This document shows positions 3,495 to 50,686 of a stretch of 64,000 nucleotides of DNA, in pieces. Origin of the DNA: Gammaproteobacteria bacterium (lineage in GTDB: Bacteria > Pseudomonadota > Gammaproteobacteria > UBA4575); assembly GCA_965222615.1 (NCBI GenBank), contig CBDCUI010000008.1:160001-224000 (forward strand). Direction: 5' to 3'. A program made the position numbers and the translations under genes. The first letter of the stretch is position 1. The number at the start of each line of letters is the position of its first letter. Below the pieces are notes generated by a model. That model did no database searches. It saw nothing but the letters and a program-made list of their open reading frames with translations, and was not told the origin of the DNA.

Positions 3495-3502
3495 AATTTA
3501 TG

Positions 3503-3594
3503 TAGCGTCCAATTGTCGATTAGTATAGCGTCCAATTGTCGATTAGTATAGCGTCCAATTGTCGATTAACTCAGCGTCTAATTGTGGACTTAAA
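3503..3594. repeat. 4 x 23-bp direct tandem repeat (TAGCGTCCAATTGTCGATTAGTA)
   Basis: Copies at 3503, 3526 and 3549, plus a degenerate copy at 3572, immediately upstream of the ATPase start at 3494. Confidence 0.9.
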
Positions 3595-8048: not shown

Positions 8049-8070
8049 GGTGCCCTTTCTCCTCTATTTC

Positions 8071-8213
8071 AAACCACATCTAGAAATGTCCTTTTTTAAG
8101 CATAGCTTCGTTAGCAACATGCTCAGATCCTCATGTATTGCATATACACTCCGGTCTTGCGCGTGTTGCTGCCTTGCTCTGCTTAAAAAATTACGATTTC
8201 TGGTCATAGTTTT
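8071..8213. repeat. ERIC/RPE-like palindromic intergenic element
   Basis: Long imperfect hairpin with core CTCATGTATTGCATATACACTCCG; close reverse-complement relative at ~35152-35293. Confidence 0.8.
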
Positions 8214-8235
8214 GGTCTAGTTACTTTTGTGCTGC

Positions 8236-11200
8236 CTATTGGCAGGCTTCACATTCTGGATCTAAGATCGAACAAGCCTTTGGTGCTTCGCTACCATTGC
8301 CGTTGCTCACGGCATTGAGTTTGCTTTCTCGACCTTGGATGGTACTTTTTTCTACATGTGTTGCGCCCATTGAGCGTAAGTAGTAAGTAGTTTTCAAACC
8401 ACGTACCCACGCCAACTTATACAAGTTATCCAATTTTTGGCCGGATGGCTCGGACATGTAGAGGTTGAGCGACTGTGCTTGATCAATCCACTTCTGACGC
8501 CGCGATGCGGCTTCTATTAACCAGCGTGGATCGATTTCAAACGCAGTGGCGTATAAATTTTTTAACTCTGCTGGAACACGATCGATGGATTGCACACTGC
8601 CATCAAAATATTTGAGGTCATTGGCCATGACTTCGTCCCAAAGATCACGTTCTTTCAAATCTTCAATCAAGTATGGATTGCTGACGGTGAATTCACCGGA
8701 TAAATTCGATTTCACATATAGGTTTTGATAGGTAGGTTCGATACTTTGAGTTACGCCGCAGATATTAGAAATGGTTGCAGTCGGTGCAATCGCCATGGTG
8801 TTGGAGTTGCGCATACCTACGGTTTTTACCCGTTGACGTAGGCTGTCCCAATCCATGCTGATGCTACGGTCTTGATTTAAATAACTGCCACGACCTTGTT
8901 CTAATAACTCGATGGAATCGATCGGCAATATGCCTTGTTCCCACAGTGAGCCTCTAAAGGTTGAATAAGTGCCGCGCTCTTCAGCTAAATCGGTGGAGGC
9001 CTTGATGGCGTAGTAACTAACTGCTTCCATGGAGCGATCGGCAAACTCTACGGCTTCTTCATTGCCATAAGGAATGTGCTGTTTATAGAGTGCATCTTGA
9101 AAACCCATCATGCCTAACCCCACTGGGCGATGGCGTAAGTTGGATTGACGTGCCTTGGATACACTGTAGTAGTTATATTCAATCACGTTGTCCAACATGC
9201 GCATGGCAGTGGTAATGGTTTCTTCAAGTTTTTTCAGGTTTAAACCGTTCTCGTCAATGTGTGCTGCGAGATTCACGGAACCTAAGTTACATACCGCAAT
9301 TTCATCATCATTGGTATTGAGGGTAATTTCCGTACACAGATTAGAAGAGTGCACTACCCCTGCATGTTGTTGCGGAGATCGTAAGTTGCAAGGATCTTTA
9401 AAGGTAATCCACGGATGGCCTGTTTCATATAACATGCCTAGCATCTTGCGCCATAGGTGCACGGCATTTACTTTTTTGCAGTTTTTAATTTCGCCACGCT
9501 CGGCCTTTTGTTCATACTCTAGGTAACGCGCTTCAAACTCTTTGCCACTTAGTTCGTGTAAGTCCGGCGTTTCATGCGGTGAGAATAATATCCAGTCTTG
9601 TTCTTCGCAGACACGTTTCATGAATAAATCCGGCACCCAATTGGCGGTGTTCATGTCGTGGGTACGACGACGATCGTCACCGGTGTTTTTGCGCAGCTCT
9701 AAAAATTCTTCAATGTCTAAATGCCAGGTTTCTAAATAGGCACACATGGCACCTTTACGCTTGCCGCCGTTGTGTGCAAGGGCAGCACTGGTCATGTAAC
9801 TCTCATCGCCCTCTACTTTAAGGTCATAAACAAAAAGCAGGGGTTTAATTTCACGGTGTGAACGAATGCGTGTAAAGATGTGACCTTTCCACTGCAACCA
9901 GTTTTGTTTTTTAATCGCTTTGCAGTTCACTAATGAGGCAATTTTCGCTACTGCAGGAATGCGCAGGTCAAAGGCCTTAACCGTTCCTTTGAATTGAATC
10001 TTTTCACCATCGGCACGTGTTGCACAGTGATCTTGCTGTCGTTCACGATATTGTCCTGCACTTGGAATGCCTAAGCGCAATAACTGGTAACGTAAGCCTT
10101 CAACTAATGCTTGTGAAGTATTGGTGAAGTAGATTTCTTTGCCGCGACTACTTGTCTTATTTTTATTGGCCCCATCAGTTTCTAATAAGCCTTTAATTAA
10201 TGAAAGCGTTTGTGTAGGAGGCAAATGCGCATAGCGTCTGGCAATACGTTTTTTGTTATTGGCGTTATACAAATCATCGCGAGAGAAAATAAAGCCGTTT
10301 TGGTCACCGCGTATAAAACGCCCGGTAGTGGCTTCACGTGCAACTCCAACATTTGCCGCCCAACCAAGTTGCATATAGTTTTTACGCTGATTCTTTTCCC
10401 AGAAATGAATTCCATGTTGCTTGAGGTAATTGCGTACAAACTCCAAGTATTCATCTTTATTTGGGTTCCCCGAAACACCCCATTCCAATCCATCTTTAGT
10501 GCAATGACCATCACCTAATAAAATGCCGTATAAGCGTGCATCGTCTTCGTCCATTCCCTCTACTGGAATCACTTCTTGCGGAATTACTTGTGCAACATAA
10601 TCGCCTTTGCTTAATTGCCCGGCTTCAATCCATTGCGCACGTGCTTTGCCTTTTTCTAGCCAGTTATAAGTGCGCTCGTTAGTTTGTTCCATGGGGATGC
10701 CTTGAATGGCCCACAGAGGATGGCCGGCCGTAACTTGCATGCTCGTTAAAGAATGTTTGGCGCACATCTCCACCATAGGGTCGGTTTGGTTGTAGGCCAT
10801 TTTGTCGATGACTTCGCGATATTGACCGCATTGGCCAAGTACTAAATCACCTGGCTCAATATCTTTAATGGATTTAGTTCCATCCGCGGTATACACCGTA
10901 GTGTCCGGTGCGAAACATTGATTCACGGCTACAGCAGTATCGTTGGCAACTTTAAGAAAAGGAACCACGCCTTGGGATTTGCCATTGGTGCCTTTGATGT
11001 GTGAACCCATGGCGCGTACGCGTGACCAATCGTTACCTAAGCCACCGGCAAACTTAGATAACATGGCATCGTCTTGAATGGCTTCAAAGATACCGTGTAA
11101 GTCATCCGGTACCGTAGTTAAATAACACGAAGATAACTGTGGGCGTAATGTGCCGGAGTTAAACAGGGTTGGGGTGGAACTCATGAAGTCAAAAGATGAC

Positions 11201-30552: not shown

Positions 30553-30879
30553 TTATGTTTCTGTTGGCGGAGAATAACTTGGGTCGTTGGGGTTTAAAAA
30601 AACAAAATTGAATTGCTTAGGCTCTAACTCTACATAATCAAGCGTTGCACCCTTAAGTAATTCCAAACTACTGTCGGCGATGACGATTTCGACTCCATTT
30701 GATTCAAAATAATGATCCTTGTCTGAACTTCCACCGATATCATCGAATCCTAAGCCATAATGAATAGAGTTGTCCGCATTACGTGTGGCAGCAATACGTA
30801 ACGGAGTATTTTCTAATTTTGACTCAATCGCAGATTTTTTAATTATATTGGCTGCGGTTTTAGTAATTTCAAAAGACAT
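30553..30879 (-). CDS. dsrR: DsrR, IscA-like protein lacking the cluster Cys residues
   Basis: HesB/IscA-fold motifs (LRIAA, Y.LGFD, GATLDYVE, F.FLNPN); no Cys; follows dsrN. Confidence 0.85.
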   Translation of the reverse strand: MSFEITKTAANIIKKSAIESKLENTPLRIAATRNADNSIHYGLGFDDIGGSSDKDHYFESNGVEIVIADSSLELLKGATLDYVELEPKQFNFVFLNPNDPSYSPPTET

Positions 30880-34977: not shown

Positions 34978-35001
34978 TTTTAATTATTATTTAAGGAGTT
35001 T

Positions 35002-35293
35002 GGGGTGCTTCTAAAAATAGTAGATTTTTTTTCAATGTAAATAAAAGACTTTACACAGACTGGTATTTTACTTTCAGGCAAGGCAAAAATGCGCACAGGG
35101 AGGGAGTTTACATGAAGTAAATGACCGACTGAGCACATGTCTAATAATTCGAGGGTATTTCTAGAAATAGTGGATTTTTTGTCAGAGCAAGGAAGTACCG
35201 CGCGCAAAACCGCAGTGTATATGTCAATACATGAGGATTTGAGCACGGGACTGACGAAGCTATGGCGGAAAAGACACATTTTTAGATGTACCC
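35002..35293. repeat. Two tandem ERIC/RPE-like elements between dsrL and dsrJ
   Basis: Cores GGGAGTTTACATGAAGTAAATGACC (~35102) and CGCAGTGTATATGTCAATACATGAGG (~35211); the second copy ends at the dsrL stop. Confidence 0.78.
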
Positions 35294-37243
35294 TCAGTGG
35301 CCGAGTGCCATGTCGATGTACCCCGTCGGACAAACATCCGCACAAATATGGCAACCAATACATTTGCTGTAGTCGGTATCAACGTAACGACCGGTTGTAG
35401 ACTGATCTTTTTTAACCCGAAACACAGCATCTTGTGGGCAATACACCACACAGTTATCACATTCAAAACACATGCCGCAGCTCATGCAGCGATTGGCTTC
35501 TTCGATGGCTTGTTCTTCCGTGAAGTTTTTCATGCGTTCTTCAAAATGGCCTAGGACTTGTTTGGCATCCGGGCCGTGTTCTTCACGAAGGTTGCGTGGA
35601 GTAAATGGAAAGTGGCCTAAAAACAATTCGTCGTGTGCAATGATTTCGTGTTCTGCACGATCTTCATAGTTGTGCACAGAAAATTCAGATTGATCCGTAC
35701 CTCGATGAGAACCGTGCTCATAATTTTCAGGTTCTAGACCAAATTCTTGTAGCTTCTCTAATAGATCGAAGTGATGTACATCGACTTTGGGGCGTTTAGT
35801 GATTTCTTGATCGGTAAGAAAGTAATCAATACTTTCTGCAGCAATCGATGCTTGGCCGATGGCGGTGGTTAAAAGATGAGGGCGAATGATATCGCCACAT
35901 ACAAAATGACCCTCACGGTTGGGTATTGCATAAAATTTATCGGCATCAATTAAACCGCGACCGTTATCAAATTCTTCTAGGCCATCAAGGTCACCACCTT
36001 GGCCGATTGCAGATACGATTAAATCACACTCAATTTCAAATTCGGTGCCCTCAATCACAACTGGACGATTATCTTCCATTTTACATTCGGCCATACGTAA
36101 TGCCGTGGCACGCCCATCCTCACCAAGGATTACTTTTACTGGCATTACTCCATCTTTAATTTTCACGCCTTCACGCATGGCATCATGTACCTCGTGTTCG
36201 GCAGCAGTCATTTCTTCACGCGCAAATAGTGATGTAAGCGTTACCTCTGCACCCTGGCGTGATGCGGCATAGGCAGCATCATGTGCAACATAGCCACCAA
36301 TAACATGTTCAGGAGCTTCATCTTGTTTTAGCTTTTCAATTTTTCCGAGTCGGCGCGCAACCGAGACCACATCAATTGATGTATCACCGCCACCCACACA
36401 TACCACGCGATCTGCAGTAACCTGTAATCGACCGGTATTGAATGCTTCTAAGAACTTCACTCCAGATACACAGTTAGGTGCGTCGCCCCCTTCAACAGGA
36501 AGACCGCGTCCAGATTGACAACCTATGGCCCAAAGTACGGCATCAAATTCTTCTTCAAGTTCTTTTACAGAGATATCTTTTCCTACACGCGTGTTTAAAC
36601 GTGTTTCAATCTGGCCCATATCTAAAATGCGCTGAATCTCGTGATCTAAATAATTTCGTGGTGTACGGTAACCGGGAATACCATAACGAAACATTCCACC
36701 AAGCTCTTCATGCTCATCAAAAATTACACTAGCATGGTCTTTGCGGCGTAATTGATACGCTGCAGCGAGTCCTGCAGGTCCGCCACCGATAATGGCTATT
36801 TTTTTTCCAGATAATTCGGTTGGCGCTTCAAACTTAAAACCTTGTTCAAAGGCACTGTCACCGATGTATTGTTCAACGGCATTGATACCGACAAAATCTT
36901 CAACATGGTTACGGTTACATCCATCTTGACAAGGAGCAGGGCAAACACGCCCCATCATGGATGGAAACGGGTTTGCTTCGGTTGAACGTAAGAAGGCATA
37001 TTCTTGCATAGACATCTCTGCCGGCGGCTTTTCAATACCGCGCACAATTTGTAGCCAACCGCGAATATCTTCGCCGGATGGGCAGCTACCTTGACAGGGT
37101 GGTGTGCGATGCACATAAGTCGGACACTTATGTGAATGATCGGCTTCAAAAATCTTATCGCCAAAATTTCCCCACTCATAATCTCCATCTTCAAACTTTC
37201 TGAAAGTTAGTTTGTGAGTTAGTTGTTCCTTCGGGGTTGCCAT
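35294..37243 (-). CDS. dsrL: DsrL, iron-sulfur flavoprotein (DsrL-1, NAD(H)-type)
   Basis: PPCQGSCP, GRVCPAPC, GGGPAG, GGGDT, C-terminal two 4Fe-4S motifs; lacks YRR (has TSLF). Confidence 0.95.
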   Translation of the reverse strand: MATPKEQLTHKLTFRKFEDGDYEWGNFGDKIFEADHSHKCPTYVHRTPPCQGSCPSGEDIRGWLQIVRGIEKPPAEMSMQEYAFLRSTEANPFPSMMGRVCPAPCQDGCNRNHVEDFVGINAVEQYIGDSAFEQGFKFEAPTELSGKKIAIIGGGPAGLAAAYQLRRKDHASVIFDEHEELGGMFRYGIPGYRTPRNYLDHEIQRILDMGQIETRLNTRVGKDISVKELEEEFDAVLWAIGCQSGRGLPVEGGDAPNCVSGVKFLEAFNTGRLQVTADRVVCVGGGDTSIDVVSVARRLGKIEKLKQDEAPEHVIGGYVAHDAAYAASRQGAEVTLTSLFAREEMTAAEHEVHDAMREGVKIKDGVMPVKVILGEDGRATALRMAECKMEDNRPVVIEGTEFEIECDLIVSAIGQGGDLDGLEEFDNGRGLIDADKFYAIPNREGHFVCGDIIRPHLLTTAIGQASIAAESIDYFLTDQEITKRPKVDVHHFDLLEKLQEFGLEPENYEHGSHRGTDQSEFSVHNYEDRAEHEIIAHDELFLGHFPFTPRNLREEHGPDAKQVLGHFEERMKNFTEEQAIEEANRCMSCGMCFECDNCVVYCPQDAVFRVKKDQSTTGRYVDTDYSKCIGCHICADVCPTGYIDMALGH

Positions 37244-39749: not shown

Positions 39750-40082
39750 TTATACACAACCCGTTGGTTTTGGCAGTCCAGCATATTTACAAGCTTGTTT
39801 TGCGGGACCATACGGAAACAGTTCGTATAAATATTTGCTGTTGCCTTTATCTTTGCCAAGTTTTTTGCCAATTGCTTTAGTAAGTACGCGTACAGCGGGA
39901 GCAATTTGGTATTCTTCGTAGTATTCGCGTAAGAAGTTAATAACTTCCCAATGGTTGTCTCCAAGTTCTGCACCATCGGCTGCAGCCATTGCTTCGGCTA
40001 ACTCTGGTTGCCAATCATTGAGGTTAGCTAAATAACCTTCTTCATCAGTCTCGTAAGACTTGCCATTTACTTCTAAGGGCAT
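39750..40082 (-). CDS. dsrC: DsrC sulfur carrier (canonical Cys-X10-Cys C-terminus)
   Basis: LFPYGPAKQACKYAGLPKPTGCV. Confidence 0.97.
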   Translation of the reverse strand: MPLEVNGKSYETDEEGYLANLNDWQPELAEAMAAADGAELGDNHWEVINFLREYYEEYQIAPAVRVLTKAIGKKLGKDKGNSKYLYELFPYGPAKQACKYAGLPKPTGCV

Positions 40083-42402: not shown

Positions 42403-43668
42403 CTAGCCAGCTGCAGTTTGTTTTTGCTCGGCTTGTTTACTAAACCATTTCTCAGCTTCGTCGTCCCAACTATCAGAACGGAAGTACGAGCTCTGACGCG
42501 GTTCGTTGACCATATTTGGATCTACGTCAACGCCGACGCCTTCTAAGAAGTTAACTAAACCAATGCGTTCAATCATCTCACCACAGCGTTCATGTTCCAG
42601 TCCGTTTTCAGCCCAAAAATCGATGGTCTCTTCTGCAAGCTCAACCAGACTTTCGTAATCTTCCTCGGTCTCAAGTTTCTTAAAGGGTACGATTACCGTT
42701 CCCATCAAGTCACCGATCTTAAGGGTACGTTTTCCACCAATTAATATCGTGATGCCTTTATCATCACCAGGTGATAACGCCTTTACCATGACGTTCAAAC
42801 AGTGCATACAACGCACACAGTCTTTGTTGTTTACCTCTAAAGTGTCGTCATCTTTAAGCGCAAGGGCTTGGGTAGGGCAGCGGGTGATTACATTATCGAT
42901 TACATACTGACGGCCTTTGCGTTTGACGAATTTTTTAACTTCGTCTTGGTCGACTTTCATGTCATCACGCCAAGTGCCAATGATGGAGAAATCCGAGCGT
43001 TCAATTGAATTCATGCAGTCATTGGGACAACCTGAAACTTTAAACTTAAATTTATATGGAAGTGCTGGTCGATGAACATCATCGGTAAAGTTATTAAGTA
43101 AGGTACGATGAATTTTCATTTCATCTGCATTGGACATTTCGCAACGTGCTGCACCCACACAGGACATGCCAGTACGAACACACGGACCTGCGCCACCTAA
43201 GTCCCAACCATAATCATTGATCTCATCGAAAAAGTGTTGCGTGTTTTCGGTGGTTGCACCGATGAACATAATATTGCCGGTTTGACCATGAAAGGTAACT
43301 AAACCTGAACCCCATTTTTCCCAACTATCACCAAGTTGCCGTAGCATATCTGTGGTGTAGTAATTGCCAGCAGGGGGTTGAACACGCAGGGTGTGAAATT
43401 CTTTTGATTCTGGAAAAGCTGAACCTACTTCCGAAAAACGCGGAATGATTCCACTGCCATAGCCAAATACCGATACGGTACCACCTTTCCAATAGCCTTT
43501 GCGTGTCTCGTACGAGTGTTCTAATTGACCCAGCAAAGAATTGGCTACGCCTTGAATGCGCTCGTCTTCGTGTTTATCGCGTAAACGTTTAATGCCTGAA
43601 ACAAAACTTGGCCAAGGGCCTTTTTCCAACTCATCTAGCATCGGAGTGGGGTGTTGCTTATTGGCCAT
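42403..43668 (-). CDS. dsrA: Reverse dissimilatory sulfite reductase alpha subunit
   Basis: GPWPSFV, WKGG.VSVFGYG.G, CVGAARCE, YKFKFKVSGCPNDC and CVRCMHC motifs. Confidence 0.98.
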   Translation of the reverse strand: MANKQHPTPMLDELEKGPWPSFVSGIKRLRDKHEDERIQGVANSLLGQLEHSYETRKGYWKGGTVSVFGYGSGIIPRFSEVGSAFPESKEFHTLRVQPPAGNYYTTDMLRQLGDSWEKWGSGLVTFHGQTGNIMFIGATTENTQHFFDEINDYGWDLGGAGPCVRTGMSCVGAARCEMSNADEMKIHRTLLNNFTDDVHRPALPYKFKFKVSGCPNDCMNSIERSDFSIIGTWRDDMKVDQDEVKKFVKRKGRQYVIDNVITRCPTQALALKDDDTLEVNNKDCVRCMHCLNVMVKALSPGDDKGITILIGGKRTLKIGDLMGTVIVPFKKLETEEDYESLVELAEETIDFWAENGLEHERCGEMIERIGLVNFLEGVGVDVDPNMVNEPRQSSYFRSDSWDDEAEKWFSKQAEQKQTAAG

Positions 43669-43818
43669 GCGGAATCTCCTAAGTAGTGTAATGTGGGATT
43701 CAGTATTTTGAATCTTTAAGGTACATGAAAAACATACCAGGGCCCGTTAAGGTTAACAGCCTTAAAAACCATGAAAATATACGTTTAGCAGTCTAGAAGT
43801 AGGATGAAAATGGCAAAA

Positions 43819-43867
43819 TCCCCTCCATGGGGTGCCGAGGTAAATACAGCTTACCCCAATAGGGATA
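43819..43867. promoter_or_regulatory. Candidate NarL-type 7-2-7 inverted sites in the dsrA/tauD divergent promoter
   Basis: TCCCCTC-CA-TGGGGTG (43819) and TACCCCA-AT-AGGGATA (43852), 33 bp apart; GC-rich motifs in an AT-rich spacer. Confidence 0.4.
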
Positions 43868-43987
43868 GGATTTATGGGGACGATGAGATAAATGAAATTT
43901 ACTGTACTTAGAGTAATCTAAATTATTAATTTGTAACCGGTATATTTACAAAGCTTTATCATCGGAAGCTCCCATATTCCATAAGTT

Positions 43988-44905
43988 ATGCAACCATTTT
44001 TATTGCAAAACCGTCACGAGTATCGGCAATGGCGAGAAGCCAAATTACGCGACTATCCTGTGGATAGTGAGCAGTTGGTTGTGGAAATTCGTAATCCCTT
44101 CAAATTGACTACTCAGGAGCGAGATGCATTGCTCGCTATATGTCAAAAAACAAATTTAGCGATTTATAGATGCCTCAGTAAAAATGTCACTGATAGTAAT
44201 ATTGTATCTGCATTGGCTGCTCAAGTTGGATTGCAACAAATGGATGCCAACTTATGTGCAGACGAAGATAAAATTTCTGCGATTCAAGTGGTCGATAAAG
44301 GGCGTAGTAGCACATACATTCCCTATACCAATAAACCTTTAAATTGGCATACCGATGGTTACTACAACCAAGATCAAGAACGTATTCGCGCATTTTTAAT
44401 GTATTGTGTGCGGCCTGCAAGCTCAGGTGGAATCAATGCCTATCTGGATCCAGAAATTCTTTACATTTTGTTACGTGATGAAAATCCCGATTATATTGAA
44501 GCCTTGATGGATAAAAATGCAATGATGATTCCAGCTAATCTACAAGACCATGAGCAAATTCGTGGTGAAAAAACTGGCCCTGTATTTTTAATCGATGAGA
44601 ATACACAAACACTATATATGCGCTATAGCGCACGAACACGCAATGTTGTTTGGAATGACAACACTGTTACACAACATGCACGAAATAGAATGTTAGAAAT
44701 TCTAAATGATAACCACTATGTTTTCCGGCATCGTTTACAAGCAGGCGAAGGTGTGCTTTGTAACAATGTATTACACAATAGAACTTTGTTTGTAGATGAT
44801 CCTACAGCAAAACGATTACTGTACCGAGCTCGTTTTTATGAACGAGTATCAAAATCAAAACATTCTGATAATGATATGGAAACGGTGAGTCAATGCTGTG
44901 GTTAA
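43988..44905 (+). CDS. TauD/TfdA-family Fe(II)/2OG dioxygenase
   Basis: LNWHTDGYY (HxD), NNVLHNR and R.LYRAR motifs. Confidence 0.85.
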   Translation: MQPFLLQNRHEYRQWREAKLRDYPVDSEQLVVEIRNPFKLTTQERDALLAICQKTNLAIYRCLSKNVTDSNIVSALAAQVGLQQMDANLCADEDKISAIQVVDKGRSSTYIPYTNKPLNWHTDGYYNQDQERIRAFLMYCVRPASSGGINAYLDPEILYILLRDENPDYIEALMDKNAMMIPANLQDHEQIRGEKTGPVFLIDENTQTLYMRYSARTRNVVWNDNTVTQHARNRMLEILNDNHYVFRHRLQAGEGVLCNNVLHNRTLFVDDPTAKRLLYRARFYERVSKSKHSDNDMETVSQCCG

Positions 44906-45093
44906 GTGAAGTCCTTATGCAAAATCATGAGTTGAGGTCATTTGAAGAACTTAAAAAAAAGTTAAGTGAACGCGCACAACAAGGAGAAATGTTTTTTCGT
45001 ATGGACGTGCGACCACCTTTTCAAGATACTCCTGAAAATTGGGAGGATATTCTAGAGTCTGTATTTACATCGGTGAATAATCAGCCTGAGTAA
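44893..45093 (+). CDS. Small hypothetical protein of the dsr-accessory operon
   Basis: Overlaps the tauD-like stop by 13 nt and ends 7 nt before cas6; MDVRPPFQDTPENWED motif. Confidence 0.75.
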   Translation: MLWLSEVLMQNHELRSFEELKKKLSERAQQGEMFFRMDVRPPFQDTPENWEDILESVFTSVNNQPE

Positions 45094-45100
45094 GCTACGA

Positions 45101-45790
45101 ATGTATTGGCAAGACAAAGAGGAAAAAGATAAACAATATGTCGTACCGGACGATATCGTTGATTTATCTTTCAAAGTACAGTGTAAACAATTGCCATTAG
45201 ACCATGCTTATGTGTTGTCACAAACCATTCAGAAAGAATTACCCTGGATTGCAGATGAACCGCAAGCGGGTATTCATTTAATCCATGGTGCAGAGTCAGG
45301 CAATGGTTGGATTCGACCCCAAGAACCTGATGCAATTTTGAATTTGTCTCGGCGCACACGTTTTATGTTGAGATTACCTAAGCAGCGTATTGACGATGCA
45401 AATCTCATTGCAGGTAAAACCCTAAAAGTAGGCGGACATGAGTTGGTGCTGAGCAATCCACAGCAGAAACTTCTTTCCCCGCTGACTACCATATTTGCGC
45501 GCTATATCATTACAGAAAATATTGAAAACGAAGAGGCCTTCTTAGACCAAGCCGCTGAGTTGGTAAAACAAAAAGGGATTCAGGTGACTAAGATGATGAG
45601 TGGGCGCGCCCATGTATTGCGTATGCCGGGACAAAATTTGTCTACGCGTAGCTTGATGATCGATGGGTTGGAAGTGGAGCAGTCAATTTATTTGCAACAG
45701 CAGGGTTTGGGCGAAGGACGTAAAGTGGGTTGTGGGTTGTTTCTTCCCCATAAGGGTATTGACGCAGTGGGACAAGCCCAGCAAAAATAA
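45101..45790 (+). CDS. cas6: Orphan Cas6-like RAMP protein (Cas6/Cmx6, type I-MYXAN-like)
   Basis: VDLSF...LPLDHAY.L, PW..GIH.IHG, LSRRT...LRLP, and C-terminal Gly-rich loop GLGEGRKVGCGLF.P. Confidence 0.85.
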   Translation: MYWQDKEEKDKQYVVPDDIVDLSFKVQCKQLPLDHAYVLSQTIQKELPWIADEPQAGIHLIHGAESGNGWIRPQEPDAILNLSRRTRFMLRLPKQRIDDANLIAGKTLKVGGHELVLSNPQQKLLSPLTTIFARYIITENIENEEAFLDQAAELVKQKGIQVTKMMSGRAHVLRMPGQNLSTRSLMIDGLEVEQSIYLQQQGLGEGRKVGCGLFLPHKGIDAVGQAQQK

Positions 45791-45794
45791 TATG

Positions 45795-45920
45795 CTAGAA
45801 GCCCTGATTTATTCTGAAACTTTGTTAAAAAATATTTCAAAATGCTCATGTATTTACATATACACTCCGCTTTTTCAATATTTTTTGCCTCGTTTCAAAA
45901 TAAATCAAGGCTTCCTTTAG
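45795..45920. repeat. ERIC/RPE-like palindromic element
   Basis: Core GCTCATGTATTTACATATACACTCCGC; termini GAAGCCCTGATTTATT / AATAAATCAAGGCTTC. Confidence 0.85.
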
Positions 45921-45999
45921 AAAATTAAAAATCTCCATTTATGGCCTAGTAACTATTATAAAAATTGTTGTTTATATTGTTAGAAGTGAGGAGTGAAGT

Positions 46000-46341
46000 A
46001 TGGGTATGAATGTAAATGGCAAAGAAGTTGAAACTACCGATTCAGGGTTTCTTGTTAATTTAGAAGATTGGAATAAAGAAGTGGCGCAAGTGATTGCACA
46101 AGAAGAAGATGTTGAGCTTACTGATAAGCACTGGGATGTAATTAATTATCTCAGAGACGAATTTGTAAATAATAACGGCAACCAGCCAAACACCCGTACT
46201 ATGGTTAAGGCGATGGCTAAGGCATGGGGCGATAAGAAATTAAATGCCAAGGTCTTATATGATTTATTTCCTGGTAATCCAAGTAAGCAAGCTGGACGTA
46301 TTGGTGGGCTGCCGGAAAGTCGTCGTAAGGGTGGCTACTAG
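46000..46341 (+). CDS. TusE/DsrC-family protein without C-terminal Cys (RspA-like)
   Basis: GFL....DW..EVA, LTDKHWDVI.YLR, LFPGNPSKQAGRIGGLPESRRKGGY; no Cys. Confidence 0.9.
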   Translation: MGMNVNGKEVETTDSGFLVNLEDWNKEVAQVIAQEEDVELTDKHWDVINYLRDEFVNNNGNQPNTRTMVKAMAKAWGDKKLNAKVLYDLFPGNPSKQAGRIGGLPESRRKGGY

Positions 46342-46483
46342 AACCCATCTCAAAATAAATCTTTTGCATTGATGCTTCGTTCTCGCTTTTCTCAAATGCT
46401 CATTTACTAACGTGTAAACTGTGCTTCTCGAAAAGCTCGGGCCTTGCCTCAAAGCAAAATCTTGAATTTTGAGCTAGGCTCTA
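46339..46483. repeat. ERIC/RPE-like palindromic element
   Basis: Starts at the TAG stop; TAGAACCCATCTCAAAA...TTTTGAGCTAGGCTCTA; core GCTCATTTACTAACGTGTAAACTGTGC. Confidence 0.82.
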
Positions 46484-46676
46484 AATAGATACACTATGAA
46501 CTAACTGGAAGTTTGTAGAGTAAACCCACATCATTTGTCGTTATGCGGAGTAATAGTGACGTAGCAATCCAGTTAAAAAGTATTCAGATTAAGCTTTACT
46601 ATTTATCCATAGTGGAATACAGACAGCACTAACTAAATCATTAAATTGTTAGATAGAAATTAACTGAGGATTCAAT

Positions 46677-46880
46677 ATGAGTTCGAAACAAGAAAAGATT
46701 CAAAAATTGCTCGACATGCAAAAGAAATTCATTGAGTTGGAGCAAAGTGGTGAAATTACCGCAGCAAATTATTGGGCACCTGAAGATGGTTCTAACCTTG
46801 ATGGATTTAAAGAAGAATATATGAAACTCGCTATGGAAGTGGTGGATGATGCGCATGAAGAAGTAGGTTCATCACGTTAG
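46677..46880 (+). CDS. Small hypothetical protein
   Basis: GAGGA RBS; helical acidic 67-aa product; terminator follows. Confidence 0.75.
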   Translation: MSSKQEKIQKLLDMQKKFIELEQSGEITAANYWAPEDGSNLDGFKEEYMKLAMEVVDDAHEEVGSSR

Positions 46881-46906: not shown

Positions 46907-46939
46907 AAAAAAGGCCACCATTTTTTGGTGGCCTTTTTT
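46907..46939. terminator. Bidirectional rho-independent terminator
   Basis: A-run-GGCCACCA-loop-TGGTGGCC-T-run between convergent genes. Confidence 0.85.
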
Positions 46940-46972
46940 ATTGAGCGGAACATATTTAATTAAATATCAATA

Positions 46973-47115: not shown

Positions 47116-47784
47116 TTAAACTTCACTCCACATTCGTACCAAATTCACATAGACATTATCAATGCGCTTGGTGTCTTCTGACTCGGGATCTTTACGCAAC
47201 ATTTTTTCTCTGGTTTTGCTGAGTTGATACAATAAATTACGTTGTTCATTGTTACGAATTAAGCTTTGTACCCAAGTTACTGCAACTAATCTCTCGCCAC
47301 TGCTTACTTTTGTGACACGATGTCGTGTAGTTGCAGGATACAACACGGCATCTCCGGCATTGGCTTTTATCGCTTGTTCTCCAAAAGGAGTTTGAATAAT
47401 CAACTCGCCACCTTGGTATTCATCTGGAGAATTAAGGAATATGGTTAGCGCAAGATCAGAGCGATAACGTTCTCCTTCTCCCATAATAGGGTCATCTATG
47501 TGCTCCCCATACTGCATGCCTGTTTGATAGCGTGCATAAAAAGGTGCTGCAACTCTGTGTGGCAATGCAGCTCGTTGATATTGAGGGTGTCGCACGAGGT
47601 TATGCATTACGATTTGATTGAGCCCAGCAATAATTTGTTCATTATCAAGCTCTTCATTGTTTTTGACATTTCTTGCAATTTTCCCCGCCGATTGTTTTCC
47701 ATCTCCAAATGTTGCATTCTTTAATAAGTTTTGAACCTGCTGCAGTTCTTTTTCACCCAGAATATGTTCAATCAGGACTAACAT
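47116..47784 (-). CDS. PKHD-type (PiuC/YbiX-like) Fe(II)/2OG hydroxylase
   Basis: DGK.SAG..A..VKNN, YGEHIDD, RSDL..TIFL..P..Y.GGEL, HRV..V..GER motifs. Confidence 0.9.
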   Translation of the reverse strand: MLVLIEHILGEKELQQVQNLLKNATFGDGKQSAGKIARNVKNNEELDNEQIIAGLNQIVMHNLVRHPQYQRAALPHRVAAPFYARYQTGMQYGEHIDDPIMGEGERYRSDLALTIFLNSPDEYQGGELIIQTPFGEQAIKANAGDAVLYPATTRHRVTKVSSGERLVAVTWVQSLIRNNEQRNLLYQLSKTREKMLRKDPESEDTKRIDNVYVNLVRMWSEV

Positions 47785-47842: not shown

Positions 47843-48166
47843 ATGATACTTAAAGTTACGATTGATGAAAAAACATTTCCACTACAAGTCGATGATGAAA
47901 TGATACATCGTGGTAGTGATGTATTTAAAAAAATGGATGATGACATGAATCAAGGATGGCAAATGAGTAGAGTTTGGGTAGATAGGCCAAACGATTTGCA
48001 GCGTTGTCAAATTGCCGCAGATAAAATGTTAACGGCTATACAACGAGAAAAAACGGCAACAGTTGGCCTGATGGCTGCATACATCATGTATAAAATACCT
48101 AAAGTTGAAGCGATTGATATCGATACTTCGGGAGATATGACCCTGACTGAAATTGTGACCAATTAA
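47843..48166 (+). CDS. Hypothetical protein
   Basis: 107-aa ORF with KMD.DM..GWQMSR.WV..P...QRCQIAADK motif; no function assignable. Confidence 0.75.
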   Translation: MILKVTIDEKTFPLQVDDEMIHRGSDVFKKMDDDMNQGWQMSRVWVDRPNDLQRCQIAADKMLTAIQREKTATVGLMAAYIMYKIPKVEAIDIDTSGDMTLTEIVTN

Positions 48167-48367
48167 AAAGTCGTTGGTATTGTTTCTGAGCGGAAATCCT
48201 GCAAAACCAATATTATATAGATTTTTAATCAACACTTTTTCTAGTGTTGTAACCTATGTACTGGCTCGCATTTTATTGCATAATCAGCAATACTAAATTA
48301 CCACAACATGATTTTAATTCTTCCGACAATCTCTAAGTGTCGGAATACCTGTAAGCGGGAGGTATTT

Positions 48368-50296
48368 ATGGCGGAGGAGAAACTCACGTTTCGACGCTAC
48401 AAGGATGGTGATCATATAACGACGCAGTGGAATAGGGATGTTGTTCAAAACGGGCTGTCTGAGATTTGCCCGGCTTATATTCATCGTACCCCTCCATGTC
48501 AGGCGAGTTGTCCTTCCGGTCACGACATCCGTGGTTGGCTCTCTATTGTCCGCGGTATTGATAAGCCCGTTGGTGATACTGCTTGGCAGGAATATGCATT
48601 TCGACGCATGACCATGTCCAATCCGTTTCCATCGGTAATGGGGCGAGTGTGTCCGGCACCTTGTGAAGATGGTTGTAATCGCAATGAAGTAGAAGAAGCG
48701 GTAGGTATTAATTCAGTAGAGCAACATGTAGGGGATTGGGCTTTACAACATGATCTTACTTTCGCTACACCAGAGGCTGATAGCGGTAAAAAAGTTGCCA
48801 TTGTTGGTGGTGGTTGCGCAGGTTTAACGGCAGCTTATTTTCTACGTCAAAAAGGCCATGCCTGTACAATTTTTGATGAGTACGACCAACTCGGTGGCAT
48901 GATGGTGTTTGGTATTCCAGGTTATCGTACCCCGCGCTCAGTGCTTGAAGGTGAGATTAAGCGGATTATCGATATGGGTGTGGAAGTTAAACTCAATACC
49001 CGCGTTGGTACTGACGTTTCCGTGCAAGAGTTAGAGCGGGATTACGATGCAATATTTTGGGGAATTGGTGCGGTTGCGGGTAAGGCCCTGCCTATTCCAG
49101 GTAGCGACGCCGCAAATGTTGTCGATGGCATGTCTTTTTTACGTGCCTTTAATGAAGGACGCCTGCAATTTATCAGTGGACGAATTTTAGTAATTGGTGC
49201 GGGTGACACCGCGATGGACGTGCTGGCTGTGGCACGACGTATTGGCAATATTCATCATGTTACAGAAAAAGATCGTCCGGAAAATGTAATTCTGGGCTAT
49301 ACCGTACACGACGTTGCCGAGGCAGCGCGGCGCAAAGGTGCTGATGTGTGGGTAGTGTATCGACGTCCCATCTCTCAGGCGCCAGCAACCAAGCATGAAT
49401 TGGAAGCGGTAATCCGTGAAGGTGTGGAGATCCACGATGGATTATCTCCTGTAGAAGTAATTAAAGATGAAGAGGGCAAAGCCAAGGCATTAAAGGTGGT
49501 GCCTGTTGATATGGTTGATGGCGAATTGAAAACCAGAGATGGTGAGGAATTTGAAATCGAATGTAGTCTAATTGTCGGCGCAACGGGCCAAACCGGTGAT
49601 TATCGGGGTATTGAAGAATTCGACAATGGGCGTGGCCTAATGGATGCGGATAAAGTCTACAGAGTGGTCGGCAAGCCCGGACATTTTGTCGCAGGCGATG
49701 CAATTAATCCGCATTTATTAACCACGGCAATTGGTCAAGCTTCGATCGCAGCAGAAGGGTTGCATCATTACTTAATGGGAGATGAAATACCGGCTCGTCC
49801 CAAGATTGATTCTCATCATTTTAAATTATTAGATGAATTGCGTGAACGTGAATTAGCACCCACGCAATTTGAACCACAAGAAGTGTGGGGCACCGATTCT
49901 TCAGATTTTGCCGTACATAATTACGAAGATCGTTCCGCTACAGAAATCGCGACTCACGACCAATTACATCTGGCTTACTTTGAAGAAGTTCCCATGAATC
50001 GGCGGGATGAAGCCAATATCACTGCTGATGAAGTGCTAAATAATTTTCAGGAAAGATTTTCCGCACTAGAAGAACAAAAAGCGATTGATGAAGCCGAACG
50101 TTGTATGAGTTGTGGAATGTGTTTCGAGTGCGATAACTGTGTGGTGTATTGCCCTGAAGATGCGATATTTAGAGTCAAAAAAGAGCAGCGTGCAATGGGA
50201 CGCTATGTGGATACCGATTATGATAAATGCGTAGGTTGTCATATTTGCTCAGAAGTCTGTCCGAGCGGCTACATCAAGATGGGATTATCGTATTAA
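48368..50296 (+). CDS. dsrL: Second DsrL paralog with YRR motif
   Basis: Colinear with the operon DsrL (HRTPPCQ.SCPSG, NPFPS.MGRVCPAPC, CMSCGMCFECDNCVVYCP, GRYVDTDY.KC); VVYRRP; likely ATG at 48368 after GGGAGG. Confidence 0.85.
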   Translation: MAEEKLTFRRYKDGDHITTQWNRDVVQNGLSEICPAYIHRTPPCQASCPSGHDIRGWLSIVRGIDKPVGDTAWQEYAFRRMTMSNPFPSVMGRVCPAPCEDGCNRNEVEEAVGINSVEQHVGDWALQHDLTFATPEADSGKKVAIVGGGCAGLTAAYFLRQKGHACTIFDEYDQLGGMMVFGIPGYRTPRSVLEGEIKRIIDMGVEVKLNTRVGTDVSVQELERDYDAIFWGIGAVAGKALPIPGSDAANVVDGMSFLRAFNEGRLQFISGRILVIGAGDTAMDVLAVARRIGNIHHVTEKDRPENVILGYTVHDVAEAARRKGADVWVVYRRPISQAPATKHELEAVIREGVEIHDGLSPVEVIKDEEGKAKALKVVPVDMVDGELKTRDGEEFEIECSLIVGATGQTGDYRGIEEFDNGRGLMDADKVYRVVGKPGHFVAGDAINPHLLTTAIGQASIAAEGLHHYLMGDEIPARPKIDSHHFKLLDELRERELAPTQFEPQEVWGTDSSDFAVHNYEDRSATEIATHDQLHLAYFEEVPMNRRDEANITADEVLNNFQERFSALEEQKAIDEAERCMSCGMCFECDNCVVYCPEDAIFRVKKEQRAMGRYVDTDYDKCVGCHICSEVCPSGYIKMGLSY

Positions 50297-50347: not shown

Positions 50348-50686
50348 TTAAACTGCGCTGCCAAACCCTTTATCAACTGCCCCGGCAGGTGCATGCAGTC
50401 CTGCTATTCTACATCCTTGTGCGACTGGCCCACCTGGAAACAAGTCATATAAATATTTCATGCCACCTTTATGATGAAATTTTTCTTCTAATGCATCGTG
50501 AAGTTCGCGCATATTTATTTGGTTGATTTCGTGGCGTGAATAAAATTCTTGCAAGGCGTGAACTACACTAAAGTGGTCCTCGGTTAGAGTTAACCCTTCT
50601 TCGGTGGCTGCTTTGATTGTATCTTCTTCTGTCCAATCTTCAGATATAAACGCACGCGCATAATCATTTTTTATAGATGTGGTCAT
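50348..50686 (-). CDS. TusE/DsrC-family protein with only the upstream Cys
   Basis: EGL.LTEDH..VV..L and YLY.LFPGGPVAQGCRIAGL..PAG..D.GFGS motifs. Confidence 0.88.
   Translation of the reverse strand: MTTSIKNDYARAFISEDWTEEDTIKAATEEGLTLTEDHFSVVHALQEFYSRHEINQINMRELHDALEEKFHHKGGMKYLYDLFPGGPVAQGCRIAGLHAPAGAVDKGFGSAV

What the first reader, a model, noticed from the sequence alone, without database searches (positions are those of the whole stretch)
43988..46880. Orphan Cas6 in a sulfur-oxidation operon facing dsrA: candidate CRISPR-independent RNA-processing system
Seen: tauD-like, a 66-aa ORF and a cas6-like gene are tightly coupled (13-nt overlap, 7-nt gap), followed by a Cys-less DsrC paralog and a 67-aa ORF, all divergent from dsrA. 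The Cas6 retains the DH motif and Gly-rich loop, yet no array, cas1/2/3/5/7/8 or mobile-element signature occurs in 64 kb. Established: Cas6 binds and cleaves RNA hairpins, and DsrR and DsrS were implicated in post-transcriptional control of dsr genes in Allochromatium vinosum. Inference: a domesticated Cas6 that processes or binds the long dsr mRNA or an sRNA. The hairpin elements between dsr genes and directly after cas6 are candidate substrates, but that link is speculative.
Basis: partly seen in the sequence, partly recalled or inferred. Interest (0 to 1): 0.85.

Follow-up and report, generated by a model that had tools for sequence, protein, structure and literature searches.

The report
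Array-free Cas6 tied to sulfur oxidation
A protein of the CRISPR RNA-cutting Cas6 family has been kept, without any CRISPR system, as a standing neighbour of the sulfur-oxidising dsrAB genes in many Gammaproteobacteria, which points to a new, still unproven job for a CRISPR protein in energy metabolism.

Summary
ORFs, the 13-nt overlap and the 7-nt gap are as described. The 229-aa protein is a genuine Cas6 of the Cmx6/type I-B kind (Pfam 8e-61, NCBIfam 4e-43, Cas6 fold). Its genome (99.8% complete) has no array, Cas1, Cas2, Cas5, Cas7 or Cas8b, and no Cas3 above cut-off.

New here:
- In 400 sampled genomes of the class, 120 hold both this protein and DsrA, 5 hold only the former, 7 only DsrA, and 268 neither.
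- 61 of 123 carriers lack Cas1.
- The unit TauD-like, s66, Cas6-like, Cys-less DsrC paralog and s67 lies divergent from dsrA in 70 of 76 loci, including 1.1-Mb genomes.
- dN/dS is 0.06-0.10.
- It splits from CRISPR-linked relatives on one branch.

RNA processing is not shown. The Asp-His motif and glycine-rich loop are kept, but the clade is acidic (pI 6.05 against 9.44). The "hairpin elements" are a repeat specific to this genome, and I found no conserved RNA target. Ten paper searches found no description of this link.

The parts
42403..43668 (-). dsrA, first gene of the dsrABEFHCMKLJOPNR operon (context; divergent partner of the module)
   Evidence: ORF. The rest of the operon is named by NCBIfam. 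DsrA relatives were found in 127 of 401 class genomes.
43669..43987 (.). Divergent intergenic region. It has a block (about 43789-43880) conserved in 25 of 26 close relatives: AGTCTAGAAG, CCCCTCCATGGGG and TTATCCC-N4-AGAGATAGG. I read these as promoter and operator DNA.
   Evidence: Sequence; alignments. The promoter reading is my inference from spacing to -10-like hexamers.
43988..44905 (+). TauD/TfdA-family Fe(II)/2-oxoglutarate dioxygenase (305 aa) with the H-x-D...H triad and an Arg-rich C-terminal motif conserved
   Evidence: PF02668 3.9e-18. The conserved motifs WHTDGYYN, NNvLH.R and RllyRaR appear in 92 orthologs. Present in 68 of 81 loci with flanks.
44893..45093 (+). s66, a conserved acidic 66-aa protein of no family. 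It overlaps the TauD-like gene by 13 nt and ends 7 nt before the Cas6-like gene.
   Evidence: Present in 75 of 81 loci. Invariant residues include D38, P41, D45-T46-P47 and W50-E51. No Pfam or NCBIfam hit above cut-off. Not related to DsrC (hhalign probability 0.3%).
45101..45790 (+). Cas6-like protein (229 aa), the dsr-linked subfamily of PF09559/Cmx6
   Evidence: Family and fold. Subfamily features and tree. Distribution. Charge and selection.
45797..45920 (.). Copy of a dispersed hairpin repeat specific to this genome, inserted between the Cas6-like and DsrC-like genes. It is not part of the conserved module.
   Evidence: Relatives have a 42-127-nt spacer without it.
46000..46341 (+). Cys-less DsrC/TusE-family paralog (113 aa) with an invariant C-terminus ...GLPxxxRKGGY
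   Evidence: PF04358 4.7e-36. The best solved relative is A. vinosum DsrC, 1yx3. The RKGGY tail is in 88 of 88 unique orthologs, and 70 of 88 have no Cys. The tail reads GKGGY in the G730 lineage.
46604..46660 (+). Conserved promoter-like element before s67: CC(C)-N4-GGAATACAGAC here, CCC-N4-GGGATAKG plus 20 nt plus a TATAGT-like hexamer in distant relatives
   Evidence: The core is found in 39 of 76 intergenic regions at up to 2 mismatches; I recognised related forms by eye in others.
46677..46880 (+). s67, a conserved 67-aa protein of no family
   Evidence: Present in 66 of 81 loci. Conservation. Only 'hypothetical protein' clusters in the ESM Atlas.
46913..46940 (.). GC-rich hairpin plus T-run, a likely two-way terminator closing the unit
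   Evidence: Sequence. Only sub-threshold Rfam leader or sRNA matches there.
47116..47784 (-). YbiX/PKHD-type Fe(II)/2OG hydroxylase, convergent with the unit and conserved next to it
   Evidence: NF003974 6.5e-73. Neighbour in most loci. Triad motifs conserved in 79 orthologs.
47843..48166 (+). h107, a conserved 107-aa protein of no family

Best explanation
Shown: the gene encodes a true Cas6-fold protein of the Cmx6/type I-B lineage that has left CRISPR. It is a single-copy gene under strong purifying selection and is co-inherited with dsrAB. It belongs to a conserved accessory module: TauD-like dioxygenase, s66, Cas6-like protein, a Cys-less DsrC paralog ending in RKGGY, and s67. This module is transcribed divergently from dsrAB in sulfur-oxidising Gammaproteobacteria.

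Inferred: the protein keeps the Asp-His motif and the glycine-rich loop that it shares with CRISPR-linked relatives. It also sits where regulators of an operon typically sit. From this I think it most likely acts as a structure-specific RNA-binding protein or endoribonuclease. It would work with the DsrC-like partner on a transcript of the sulfur-oxidation regulon, adjusting Dsr protein levels after transcription.
For: Family and fold:
- PF09559 8.3e-61 and TIGR02807 4e-43.
- The profile hits type I-B CAST Cas6 8fcj_B at 1.2e-20.
- AF2 mean pLDDT is 82.7. Foldseek's top hits are Cas6 chains, with 8fcj_B at TM 0.72/0.76.

CRISPR independence:
- The own genome has no arrays or other cas genes.
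- 61 of 123 carrier genomes have no Cas1.

Coupling to dsr:
- 120 genomes hold both this protein and DsrA, 5 hold only the former, 7 only DsrA, and 268 neither, of 400.
- A divergent dsrA lies within 6 kb in 70 of 76 loci.
- The module is kept in 1.1-Mb genomes G187 and G347.
- The genes stay linked when the order changes (G730 and G701: dsrA, then divergent Cas6-like, DsrC-like and TauD-like).
- Cas6-like and DsrA divergences correlate, Spearman 0.80, with 0 of 999 permutations as high.

Function retained:
- dN/dS is 0.058-0.104 where dS is not saturated.
- D34-H35 and the G-rich loop are conserved in both the dsr-linked rows (115) and the CRISPR-linked rows (40).
Against: - I found no RNA partner. 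The hairpin after the gene is one of 69 copies of a repeat specific to this genome, absent from 129 relatives' loci.
- RNAalifold gives no consensus structure for the dsrA leader, and its folding excess is slight (mean z -0.47).
- Rfam finds nothing.
- The conserved intergenic motifs look like promoter DNA.
- The clade is acidic to neutral (median pI 6.05, net charge -5, n=115). CRISPR-linked relatives are basic (9.44, +5.5, n=40).
- The presumed active-site region is remodelled. It has invariant H59 and H62 and an SGNGWxRP insert that AF2 models poorly (pLDDT below 50 at residues 64-70).
- 57 genomes of other classes with DsrA-like genes lack the protein. It is therefore not needed for Dsr chemistry as such.
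Confidence: 0.5

Rival explanations
1. The Cas6 fold has been re-used for something other than RNA. It could be a protein partner or chaperone of the DsrC-like protein and its invariant RKGGY tail. It could be a scaffold of a complex with s66 and the dioxygenase. Or it could be a small enzyme or ligand binder with a rebuilt, histidine-rich pocket.
For: - Charge shifts from basic to acidic.
- The clade has its own invariant residues at the old catalytic corner: H59, H62, S66-G-N-G-W70, R72-P73, P216-H217-K218.
- The DsrC-like gene is the most constant neighbour, even after rearrangement, and its tail is invariant.
- Tight translational coupling to s66.
- No RNA target found.
Against: - The two features shared with RNA-cutting relatives, Asp-His and the G-rich loop, are still invariant.
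- An Arg-rich stretch, SRRTRxxLRxPKxR, is conserved.
- No fused form gives a hint of a protein partner (weak evidence).
Confidence: 0.33
2. It is an ordinary orphan cas6 that matures crRNAs from an array elsewhere in the genome, or supplied in trans.
For: Annotation pipelines name it type I-MYXAN Cas6/Cmx6 (source names). 62 of 123 carriers do have some Cas1.
Against: - The own genome (99.79% complete) has no array or any other cas gene.
- 61 of 123 carriers have no Cas1. These include the single-contig genomes G018, G025, G044, G113 and G162, and the 1.1-Mb genomes G187 and G347.
- The one array seen near the module (L039) belongs to a Cas9-Cas1-Cas2 locus. That type does not use Cas6 (recalled).
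- The gene follows dsrA, not cas genes.
Confidence: 0.03
3. It is a decaying remnant of a lost CRISPR locus, or a gene of a defence island or mobile element that happens to lie near dsr.
For: A dispersed repeat copy lies directly after the gene.
Against: - dN/dS is 0.06-0.10.
- Full-length, single-copy orthologs occur in 123 of 400 class genomes.
- Synteny is kept across families and in reduced genomes.
- PADLOC finds no defence-system match for the neighbours except a generic 2OG model.
- The repeat is absent in relatives.
Confidence: 0.02

Closest known systems
Cas6/Cmx6 of type I-B (MYXAN) CRISPR-Cas, e.g. the 194-aa Cas6 of locus L121 and the solved type I-B CAST Cas6 (8fcj chain B)
   Same: - Same Pfam and NCBIfam family.
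- Same two-domain fold.
- Shared Asp-His motif and G-rich loop.
   Different: - No array or Cascade.
- About 35 residues longer, with an N-terminal extension, the AESGNGWxRP insert and a PHKGI end.
- Acidic rather than basic.
- Fixed neighbour of dsrAB rather than of cas3, cas8b, cas7 and cas5.
- 26-27% identity to L121's Cas6.
Known exaptations of CRISPR parts: type IV systems, CASTs, the Streptomyces I-E-plus-STAND module, HRAMP/ARAMP (Koonin and Makarova 2022, PMC8730458; I read passages only)
   Same: A Cas protein working outside adaptive immunity, without an adaptation module.
   Different: The listed cases keep several Cas subunits, and the passages read describe them as guide-RNA-dependent systems (type IV, CASTs) or as predicted or expected defence mechanisms. 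Here a single Cas6 is embedded in a chromosomal energy-metabolism locus. The word 'sulfur' occurs 0 times in that review.
DsrC / TusE / RspA family (for the partner gene)
   Same: The DsrC fold family. The best solved match is A. vinosum DsrC, 1yx3, at 2.7e-30, aligned up to the GLP of the C-terminal arm.
   Different: It lacks both C-terminal cysteines that define DsrC. The arm ends in the invariant RKGGY. That Cys-less members are called RspA and thought regulatory is recalled; PMC8477390 only names the family.
DsrR and DsrS, accessory dsr genes implicated in regulation in Allochromatium vinosum
   Same: Accessory, non-catalytic factors tied to the oxidative dsr operon. A dsrR homolog (IscA-like, 30553-30879) is in this operon.
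   Different: Unrelated folds. The Cas6-like module is outside the operon and divergent from it. The 2024 Dsr-evolution paper has no occurrence of CRISPR, TauD or dioxygenase in its main text, and the passages read name dsrR, dsrS and dsrT among further dsr genes. The post-transcriptional role of DsrR and DsrS is recalled; the primary paper is not held.

Membership tests
Cas6 (PF09559 / TIGR02807 Cmx6, type I-B/MYXAN) | Sequence match above the curated cut-offs | tested here: met
   205.7 bits against a cut-off of 26.7; 147.7 bits against 98.85.
Cas6 (PF09559 / TIGR02807 Cmx6, type I-B/MYXAN) | Two ferredoxin-like (RRM) domains, the Cas6 fold | tested here: met
   AF2 pLDDT 82.7, pTM 0.78. 47 PDB matches at E<=0.001, and the top ones are all Cas6 or Cse3 chains.
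Cas6 (PF09559 / TIGR02807 Cmx6, type I-B/MYXAN) | Glycine-rich loop near the C-terminus | tested here: met
   G202, G204, G210 and G212 are invariant in 30 orthologs and align with the GlGGRRKMGCGfF loop of CRISPR-linked members.
Cas6 (PF09559 / TIGR02807 Cmx6, type I-B/MYXAN) | Conserved histidine at the start of helix 1 (presumed general base; that role is recalled from other Cas6 enzymes) | tested here: met
   H35 is invariant. D-H is conserved at 90% or more in both the dsr-linked and the CRISPR-linked sets. Catalysis itself is not tested.
Cas6 (PF09559 / TIGR02807 Cmx6, type I-B/MYXAN) | Encoded with a CRISPR array and effector or adaptation cas genes | tested here: not met
   None in the own genome. 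61 of 123 carriers have no Cas1. The neighbours are dsr-related.
Cas6 (PF09559 / TIGR02807 Cmx6, type I-B/MYXAN) | Binds and cleaves a repeat-derived RNA hairpin | not testable with these tools
   No RNA runs are available. No conserved hairpin found.
DsrC proper (sulfur-carrying substrate of DsrAB) | Two conserved cysteines in the C-terminal arm | tested here: not met
   The window's protein has no Cys. 70 of 88 orthologs have none, and the arm ends in RKGGY in 88 of 88. The true DsrC, with a full-length family match, is at 39750-40082.
DsrC/TusE/RspA superfamily | PF04358 / TIGR03342 match | tested here: met
   4.7e-36 and 5.1e-32.
TauD/TfdA Fe(II)/2OG dioxygenases | Family match and the His-x-Asp...His iron triad | tested here: met
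   PF02668 3.9e-18. WHTDG and NNvLH are conserved at 90% or more in 92 orthologs. Which residues form the triad is recalled.
Canonical oxidative dsr gene set (dsrABEFHCMKLJOPNRS) | Listed dsr gene inside the operon | tested here: not met
   The module is outside the operon and divergent from it. The 2024 survey has no occurrence of CRISPR, TauD or dioxygenase. The A. vinosum genome paper defines the cluster as Alvin_1251-1265 only.

The most novel reading that the evidence does not exclude
A single Cas6, freed from CRISPR, has become the RNA-handling arm of an oxygen- or sulfur-responsive control device for dissimilatory sulfur oxidation. Two Fe(II)/2OG dioxygenases would sense O2 or modify the small proteins or the RKGGY arm of the Cys-less DsrC paralog. 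That paralog would dock on DsrAB or on nucleic acid. The Cas6-derived protein would cut or hold a dsr-regulon transcript accordingly. This would be the first Cas protein recruited into core energy metabolism.
Probability: 0.2. Interest if true: 0.9.

Novelty: new variant of a known kind. Interest (0 to 1): 0.8.

Why it matters
For CRISPR biology, this would be a clean case of one Cas protein exapted for a housekeeping, non-defence role. It is also numerically large. In the same protein database, the query from this window found 2291 relatives, while a CRISPR-linked Cmx6 found 222. Sources label the former 'type I-MYXAN CRISPR-associated', so many 'orphan cas6' calls in sulfur oxidisers are probably this gene.

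For sulfur microbiology, it adds a five-gene module to the oxidative Dsr system. The module is almost as faithful a marker of gammaproteobacterial DsrAB as the known accessory genes, with 120 of 127 DsrA-positive genomes carrying the Cas6-like gene. It is kept even in 1.1-Mb genomes. It includes a DsrC look-alike with an invariant non-cysteine arm.

The module gives concrete handles for the open question of how dsr expression and DsrAB activity are controlled: an H35 mutant, tail mutants and deletions.

Tried and rejected
Candidate RNA substrates
- The hairpin after cas6 and the similar arms between dsr genes are rejected as conserved substrates. There are 69 copies genome-wide and 134 arm motifs, and none in 129 loci (1.68 Mb) of relatives.
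- The local excess (5 arms in 19 kb against 0.82 expected) is unexplained.

dsrA leader hairpin
- By eye, many close relatives have a stem about 25-45 nt before the start codon.
- RNAalifold on 23 sequences predicts no pair.
- Folding z-scores are only slightly negative: mean -0.47, with 9% below -2, n=66. The TauD-like leader has a mean of +0.22.
- The sequences are related, so the p-values overstate. I treat this as inconclusive.

Conserved motif before s67
- I first considered it as an RNA hairpin. I rejected that in favour of a promoter, because a -10-like hexamer follows at a fixed 20 nt in distant relatives.
- A sigma-54 reading is also rejected, because the -12 GC is not kept.

Other searches that led nowhere
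- Rfam: nothing at gathering score, and only sub-threshold hits on the terminator.
- RNA evidence: no RNA holder listed.
- Complex prediction with s66, the DsrC-like protein and the Cas6-like protein as partner: 'no answer', score 0.00. This is not evidence either way.
- Fused forms longer than 402 aa: none found (weak).
- ESM Atlas for s66 and s67: only their own unnamed or auto-named clusters. The auto-name 'DsrC family' for s66 is not supported by hhalign.
- The extra 219-248-aa protein lying between s66 and the Cas6-like gene in 17 of the 22 loci that have a gap over 400 nt: no family.
- The phylum sample was poorly spread, mostly a few families.

Literature and tools
- None of ten searches returned a paper linking Cas6 to dsr.
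- I read passages only, of PMC7540712, PMC10952691, PMC8477390, PMC5944118, PMC5728499, PMC8730458, PMC11406059 and PMC3368242.
- Subscription papers and all supplements were not visible. The gene tables of PMC11406059 are among the supplements I could not see, and either could hold a mention.

Rows dropped
- For the tree I kept every second dsr-type row of L003-L111, all rows from L112 on, and every third CRISPR-type protein (66 + 40 rows).
- The two groups were defined by which query found them.
- L001, L002 and WIN duplicates and the fragments L122 and L123 were left out of the alignments.
- The loci are the 80 most similar of 422, so the counts lean towards near relatives.

Unpublished genomes
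- G308, G039 and G141 are counted. G308 counts as a weak CRISPR-type hit and as Cas1-positive. G039 and G141 count as Cas1-positive non-carriers.
- Leaving them out changes no count by more than 3.

Full report
**What is in the sequence**

- a TauD-like gene (43988-44905);
- a 66-aa ORF (s66, 44893-45093) overlapping it by 13 nt;
- a 229-aa ORF (45101-45790) starting 7 nt later;
- a 113-aa DsrC-family ORF with no cysteine (46000-46341);
- a 67-aa ORF (s67, 46677-46880).

All are on the + strand and divergent from dsrA (42403-43668).

The minus-strand operon is a standard oxidative dsr cluster: dsrABEFHCMKL, a 127-aa ORF, then JOPN and an IscA-like dsrR. Downstream of the unit lie:
- a YbiX/PKHD-type hydroxylase;
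- a conserved 107-aa ORF;
- a second DsrL-like gene;
- a third DsrC-family gene.

**Is it really a Cas6?**

Yes.
- It matches Pfam Cas6 PF09559 at 8.3e-61 and NCBIfam 'type I-MYXAN Cas6/Cmx6' at 4e-43, both far above the curated cut-offs.
- A profile of 15 orthologs hits one solved family, the Cas6 of a type I-B CRISPR-associated transposon (8fcj_B, 1.2e-20).
- The AlphaFold2 model (mean pLDDT 82.7) has the two-domain Cas6 fold. Foldseek returns Cas6 and Cse3 chains, with 8fcj_B at TM 0.72/0.76.

**Is it an orphan?**

Yes, in the whole genome (3.10 Mb, 9 contigs, 99.79% complete).
- There is one PF09559 match.
- There is no Cas1, Cas2, Cas7/DevR, Cas5 or Cas8b. The Cas8b model works on G021.
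- Only sub-threshold helicase matches hit the Cas3 core model, as in all 14 control genomes.
- My repeat-spacer scans find nothing. They do find the 18-21-repeat array of a genuine locus.
- Two array-like hits in the genome are coding tandem repeats.

**The main result: a dsr-linked, array-free clade**

*Abundance and spread.* The protein has 2291 relatives at E<=1e-3 in the protein collection. The best 120 are 57-100% identical and almost all 226-233 aa long. In 400 scored genomes drawn across the class, 125 have a match, nearly always one per genome. Record titles name the class as Gammaproteobacteria.

*Link to DsrA.* DsrA was found in 127 of 401 genomes. The overlap is 120 with both, 5 with only the Cas6-like protein, 7 with only DsrA, and 268 with neither.
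- Of the five with only the Cas6-like protein, two are weak hits (26-31% identity). One of these, G021, is a textbook type I-B locus: WYL regulator, Cas6, Cas3, Cas8b, an unassigned 326-aa ORF, Cas5, Cas4-Cas1, a 97-aa ORF I did not scan, and an array.
- The other three have loci that end at a contig edge beside the TauD-like gene.
- Four of the seven with only DsrA are below 90% complete.
- Related genomes are not independent, so I give no p-value.

*Independence from CRISPR.* Of the 123 carriers, 61 have no Cas1 match. These include single-contig genomes and the two 1.1-Mb genomes.

*Synteny.* A scan of one genome per species found 422 loci that encode a relative.
- Among the loci I held with at least 5 kb upstream, 70 of 76 have a divergent dsrA within 6 kb.
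- Among 81 loci with flanks on both sides, s66 is present in 75, the DsrC-like gene in 74, the TauD-like gene in 68 and s67 in 66. These loci lean towards near relatives.
- The 1.1-Mb genomes keep dsrCHFEBA, the TauD-like gene, s66, the Cas6-like gene, the DsrC-like gene and s67 in the same arrangement.
- In another lineage (G730, G701) the order is dsrA, then divergent Cas6-like, DsrC-like, a 203-aa ORF and TauD-like. Linkage therefore survives rearrangement.

*Selection and descent.*
- Pairwise divergences of the Cas6-like protein and DsrA correlate (Spearman 0.80, 71 loci, 0 of 999 permutations as high). The Cas6-like protein evolves faster (0.50 against 0.19).
- dN/dS against close relatives is 0.058-0.104 where dS is not saturated.
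- In a tree of 66 such proteins and 40 CRISPR-linked Cmx6 proteins, the two sets are separated by one branch with SH-aLRT 100. The CRISPR set is a narrow sample around one query.

*Outside the class.* 57 genomes with DsrA-like genes show no match to the profile. The module is therefore an accessory of the gammaproteobacterial Dsr system, not a requirement of Dsr chemistry.

**What speaks for an RNA function**
- The Asp-His pair at the start of helix 1 and the glycine-rich loop are conserved at 90% or more in both the dsr-linked and the CRISPR-linked sets. These are the features that carry RNA cleavage and phosphate binding in studied Cas6 enzymes (recalled).
- The dsr-linked proteins also keep an arginine-rich stretch, SRRTRxxLRxPKxR.
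- A gene transcribed divergently from an operon is the classical place for its regulator (general knowledge).

**What speaks against it, or for a changed function**
- The dsr-linked proteins are acidic to neutral (median pI 6.05, net charge -5, n=115). The CRISPR-linked ones are basic (9.44, +5.5, n=40).
- The corner of the fold that holds the histidine has been rebuilt. H59, H62 and a ten-residue insert, AESGNGWxRP, are invariant in most of the clade and absent from CRISPR-linked relatives. AlphaFold is unsure there.
- The G730 lineage lacks the insert.

**No RNA partner emerged**
- The long hairpin right after the gene (z -7.9) is one of 69 copies of a dispersed repeat. Its arm motif occurs 134 times in this genome and in none of 129 loci of relatives.
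- Relatives have short, unconserved spacers at that place.
- The conserved blocks in the dsrA/TauD-like spacer and before s67 share the form CCC-N4-GGGAWAKG, followed at 20 nt by a -10-like hexamer. I read them as a common activator-dependent promoter.
- The dsrA leader shows stems by eye but no consensus structure and only a slight folding excess.
- Rfam is blank, and no RNA runs are on offer.

**The partners**
- The DsrC-family protein aligns with A. vinosum DsrC up to the GLP of the arm. It then ends in RKGGY in 88 of 88 unique orthologs (GKGGY in G730) in place of the cysteine-bearing end. An invariant tail argues for a specific docking or modification site.
- Both dioxygenases keep their iron-binding motifs.
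- s66 and s67 are conserved, acidic and belong to no family.

**Verdict**

This is a CRISPR-independent, vertically kept Cas6 derivative coupled to dsrAB. The mechanistic part stays open. I put about 0.5 on an RNA-binding or RNA-cutting regulatory role and about 0.33 on a non-RNA role of the reused fold. A CRISPR function or a decaying remnant gets a few percent.

I found no description of this link in ten full-text searches.
- A 2022 review of CRISPR exaptations does not mention sulfur, and none of the exaptation passages I read lists a lone Cas6.
- A 2024 survey of Dsr evolution mentions neither CRISPR nor TauD.
- In A. vinosum the DsrC paralogs are not beside dsrA. This may be why the module escaped notice in the model organism.
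- Subscription papers and supplements were not visible to me.

Noticed in passing
window 45797-45920; also 30079, 30893, 32299/32358, 39688, 35206-35240, 61508, 62876: A dispersed hairpin repeat specific to this genome (MITE/REP-like). It occurs at 69 places at E<=1e-3, spread over the three large contigs. The arm motif GAAGCYCTGATTTATT occurs 134 times, with 5 copies in the 19-kb dsr region against 0.82 expected. It is absent from 129 loci of relatives.
   Followed up: yes
window 43789-43900 and 46604-46660; relatives' loci L003-L124: The promoter regions of the TauD-like operon and of s67 share a conserved element: CCC-N4-GGGAWAKG, then 20 nt, then a TATAGT-like hexamer. A separate conserved palindrome CCCCTCCATGGGG lies next to a putative dsrA promoter (-35 TTGCCA, -10 TAGACT on the minus strand). 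This suggests one unknown activator for the whole divergent region.
   Followed up: partly
window 48308-50296 and 50348-50686: A second DsrL-like gene (NF009410 3.5e-206) stands beside the operon's dsrL (35294-37243), and there is a third DsrC-family gene. Both are syntenic in many relatives (DsrL +2.6 to +4.2 kb).
   Followed up: no
window 47116-47784 and 47843-48166: A YbiX/PKHD-type 2OG hydroxylase and a 107-aa protein of no family are conserved neighbours of the module. This makes two O2-dependent dioxygenase genes in a sulfur-oxidation locus.
   Followed up: partly
L008, L012, L013, L014, L019, L024, L026, L031, L127-L131 and others (22 loci): In other lineages a gap of more than 400 nt separates s66 from the Cas6-like gene. 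In 17 of these 22 loci it holds a 219-248-aa protein of no Pfam family (weak helical-repeat hints only).
   Followed up: partly
L134 (G730) 7041-9523; L135 (G701): A variant module directly divergent from dsrA: Cas6-like (without the AESGNGW insert), DsrC-like ending GKGGY, a 203-aa ORF, then TauD-like.
   Followed up: partly
L039 12846-20629: One relative has an IS605-type TnpB gene and a type II locus (RuvC-domain Cas9 fragment, Cas1, Cas2, a 22-repeat array) about 3-10 kb downstream of the module. It is an unrelated insertion.
   Followed up: yes
protein collection: Sources label the dsr-linked proteins 'type I-MYXAN CRISPR-associated protein Cas6/Cmx6'. The dsr-type query found 2291 relatives, and a CRISPR-linked Cmx6 query found 222. 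Automated CRISPR censuses of sulfur oxidisers may therefore over-count cas6.
   Followed up: partly
window 34980-35363: A 127-aa ORF between dsrL and dsrJ has no NCBIfam match and overlaps a partial copy of the dispersed repeat (35206-35240). It may not be a real gene.
   Followed up: no
window 3496-3593; genome C8:302475-302700: A 23-nt tandem repeat of about 4 copies lies in the window. Elsewhere in the genome there is a coding tandem repeat on the reverse strand.
   Followed up: no
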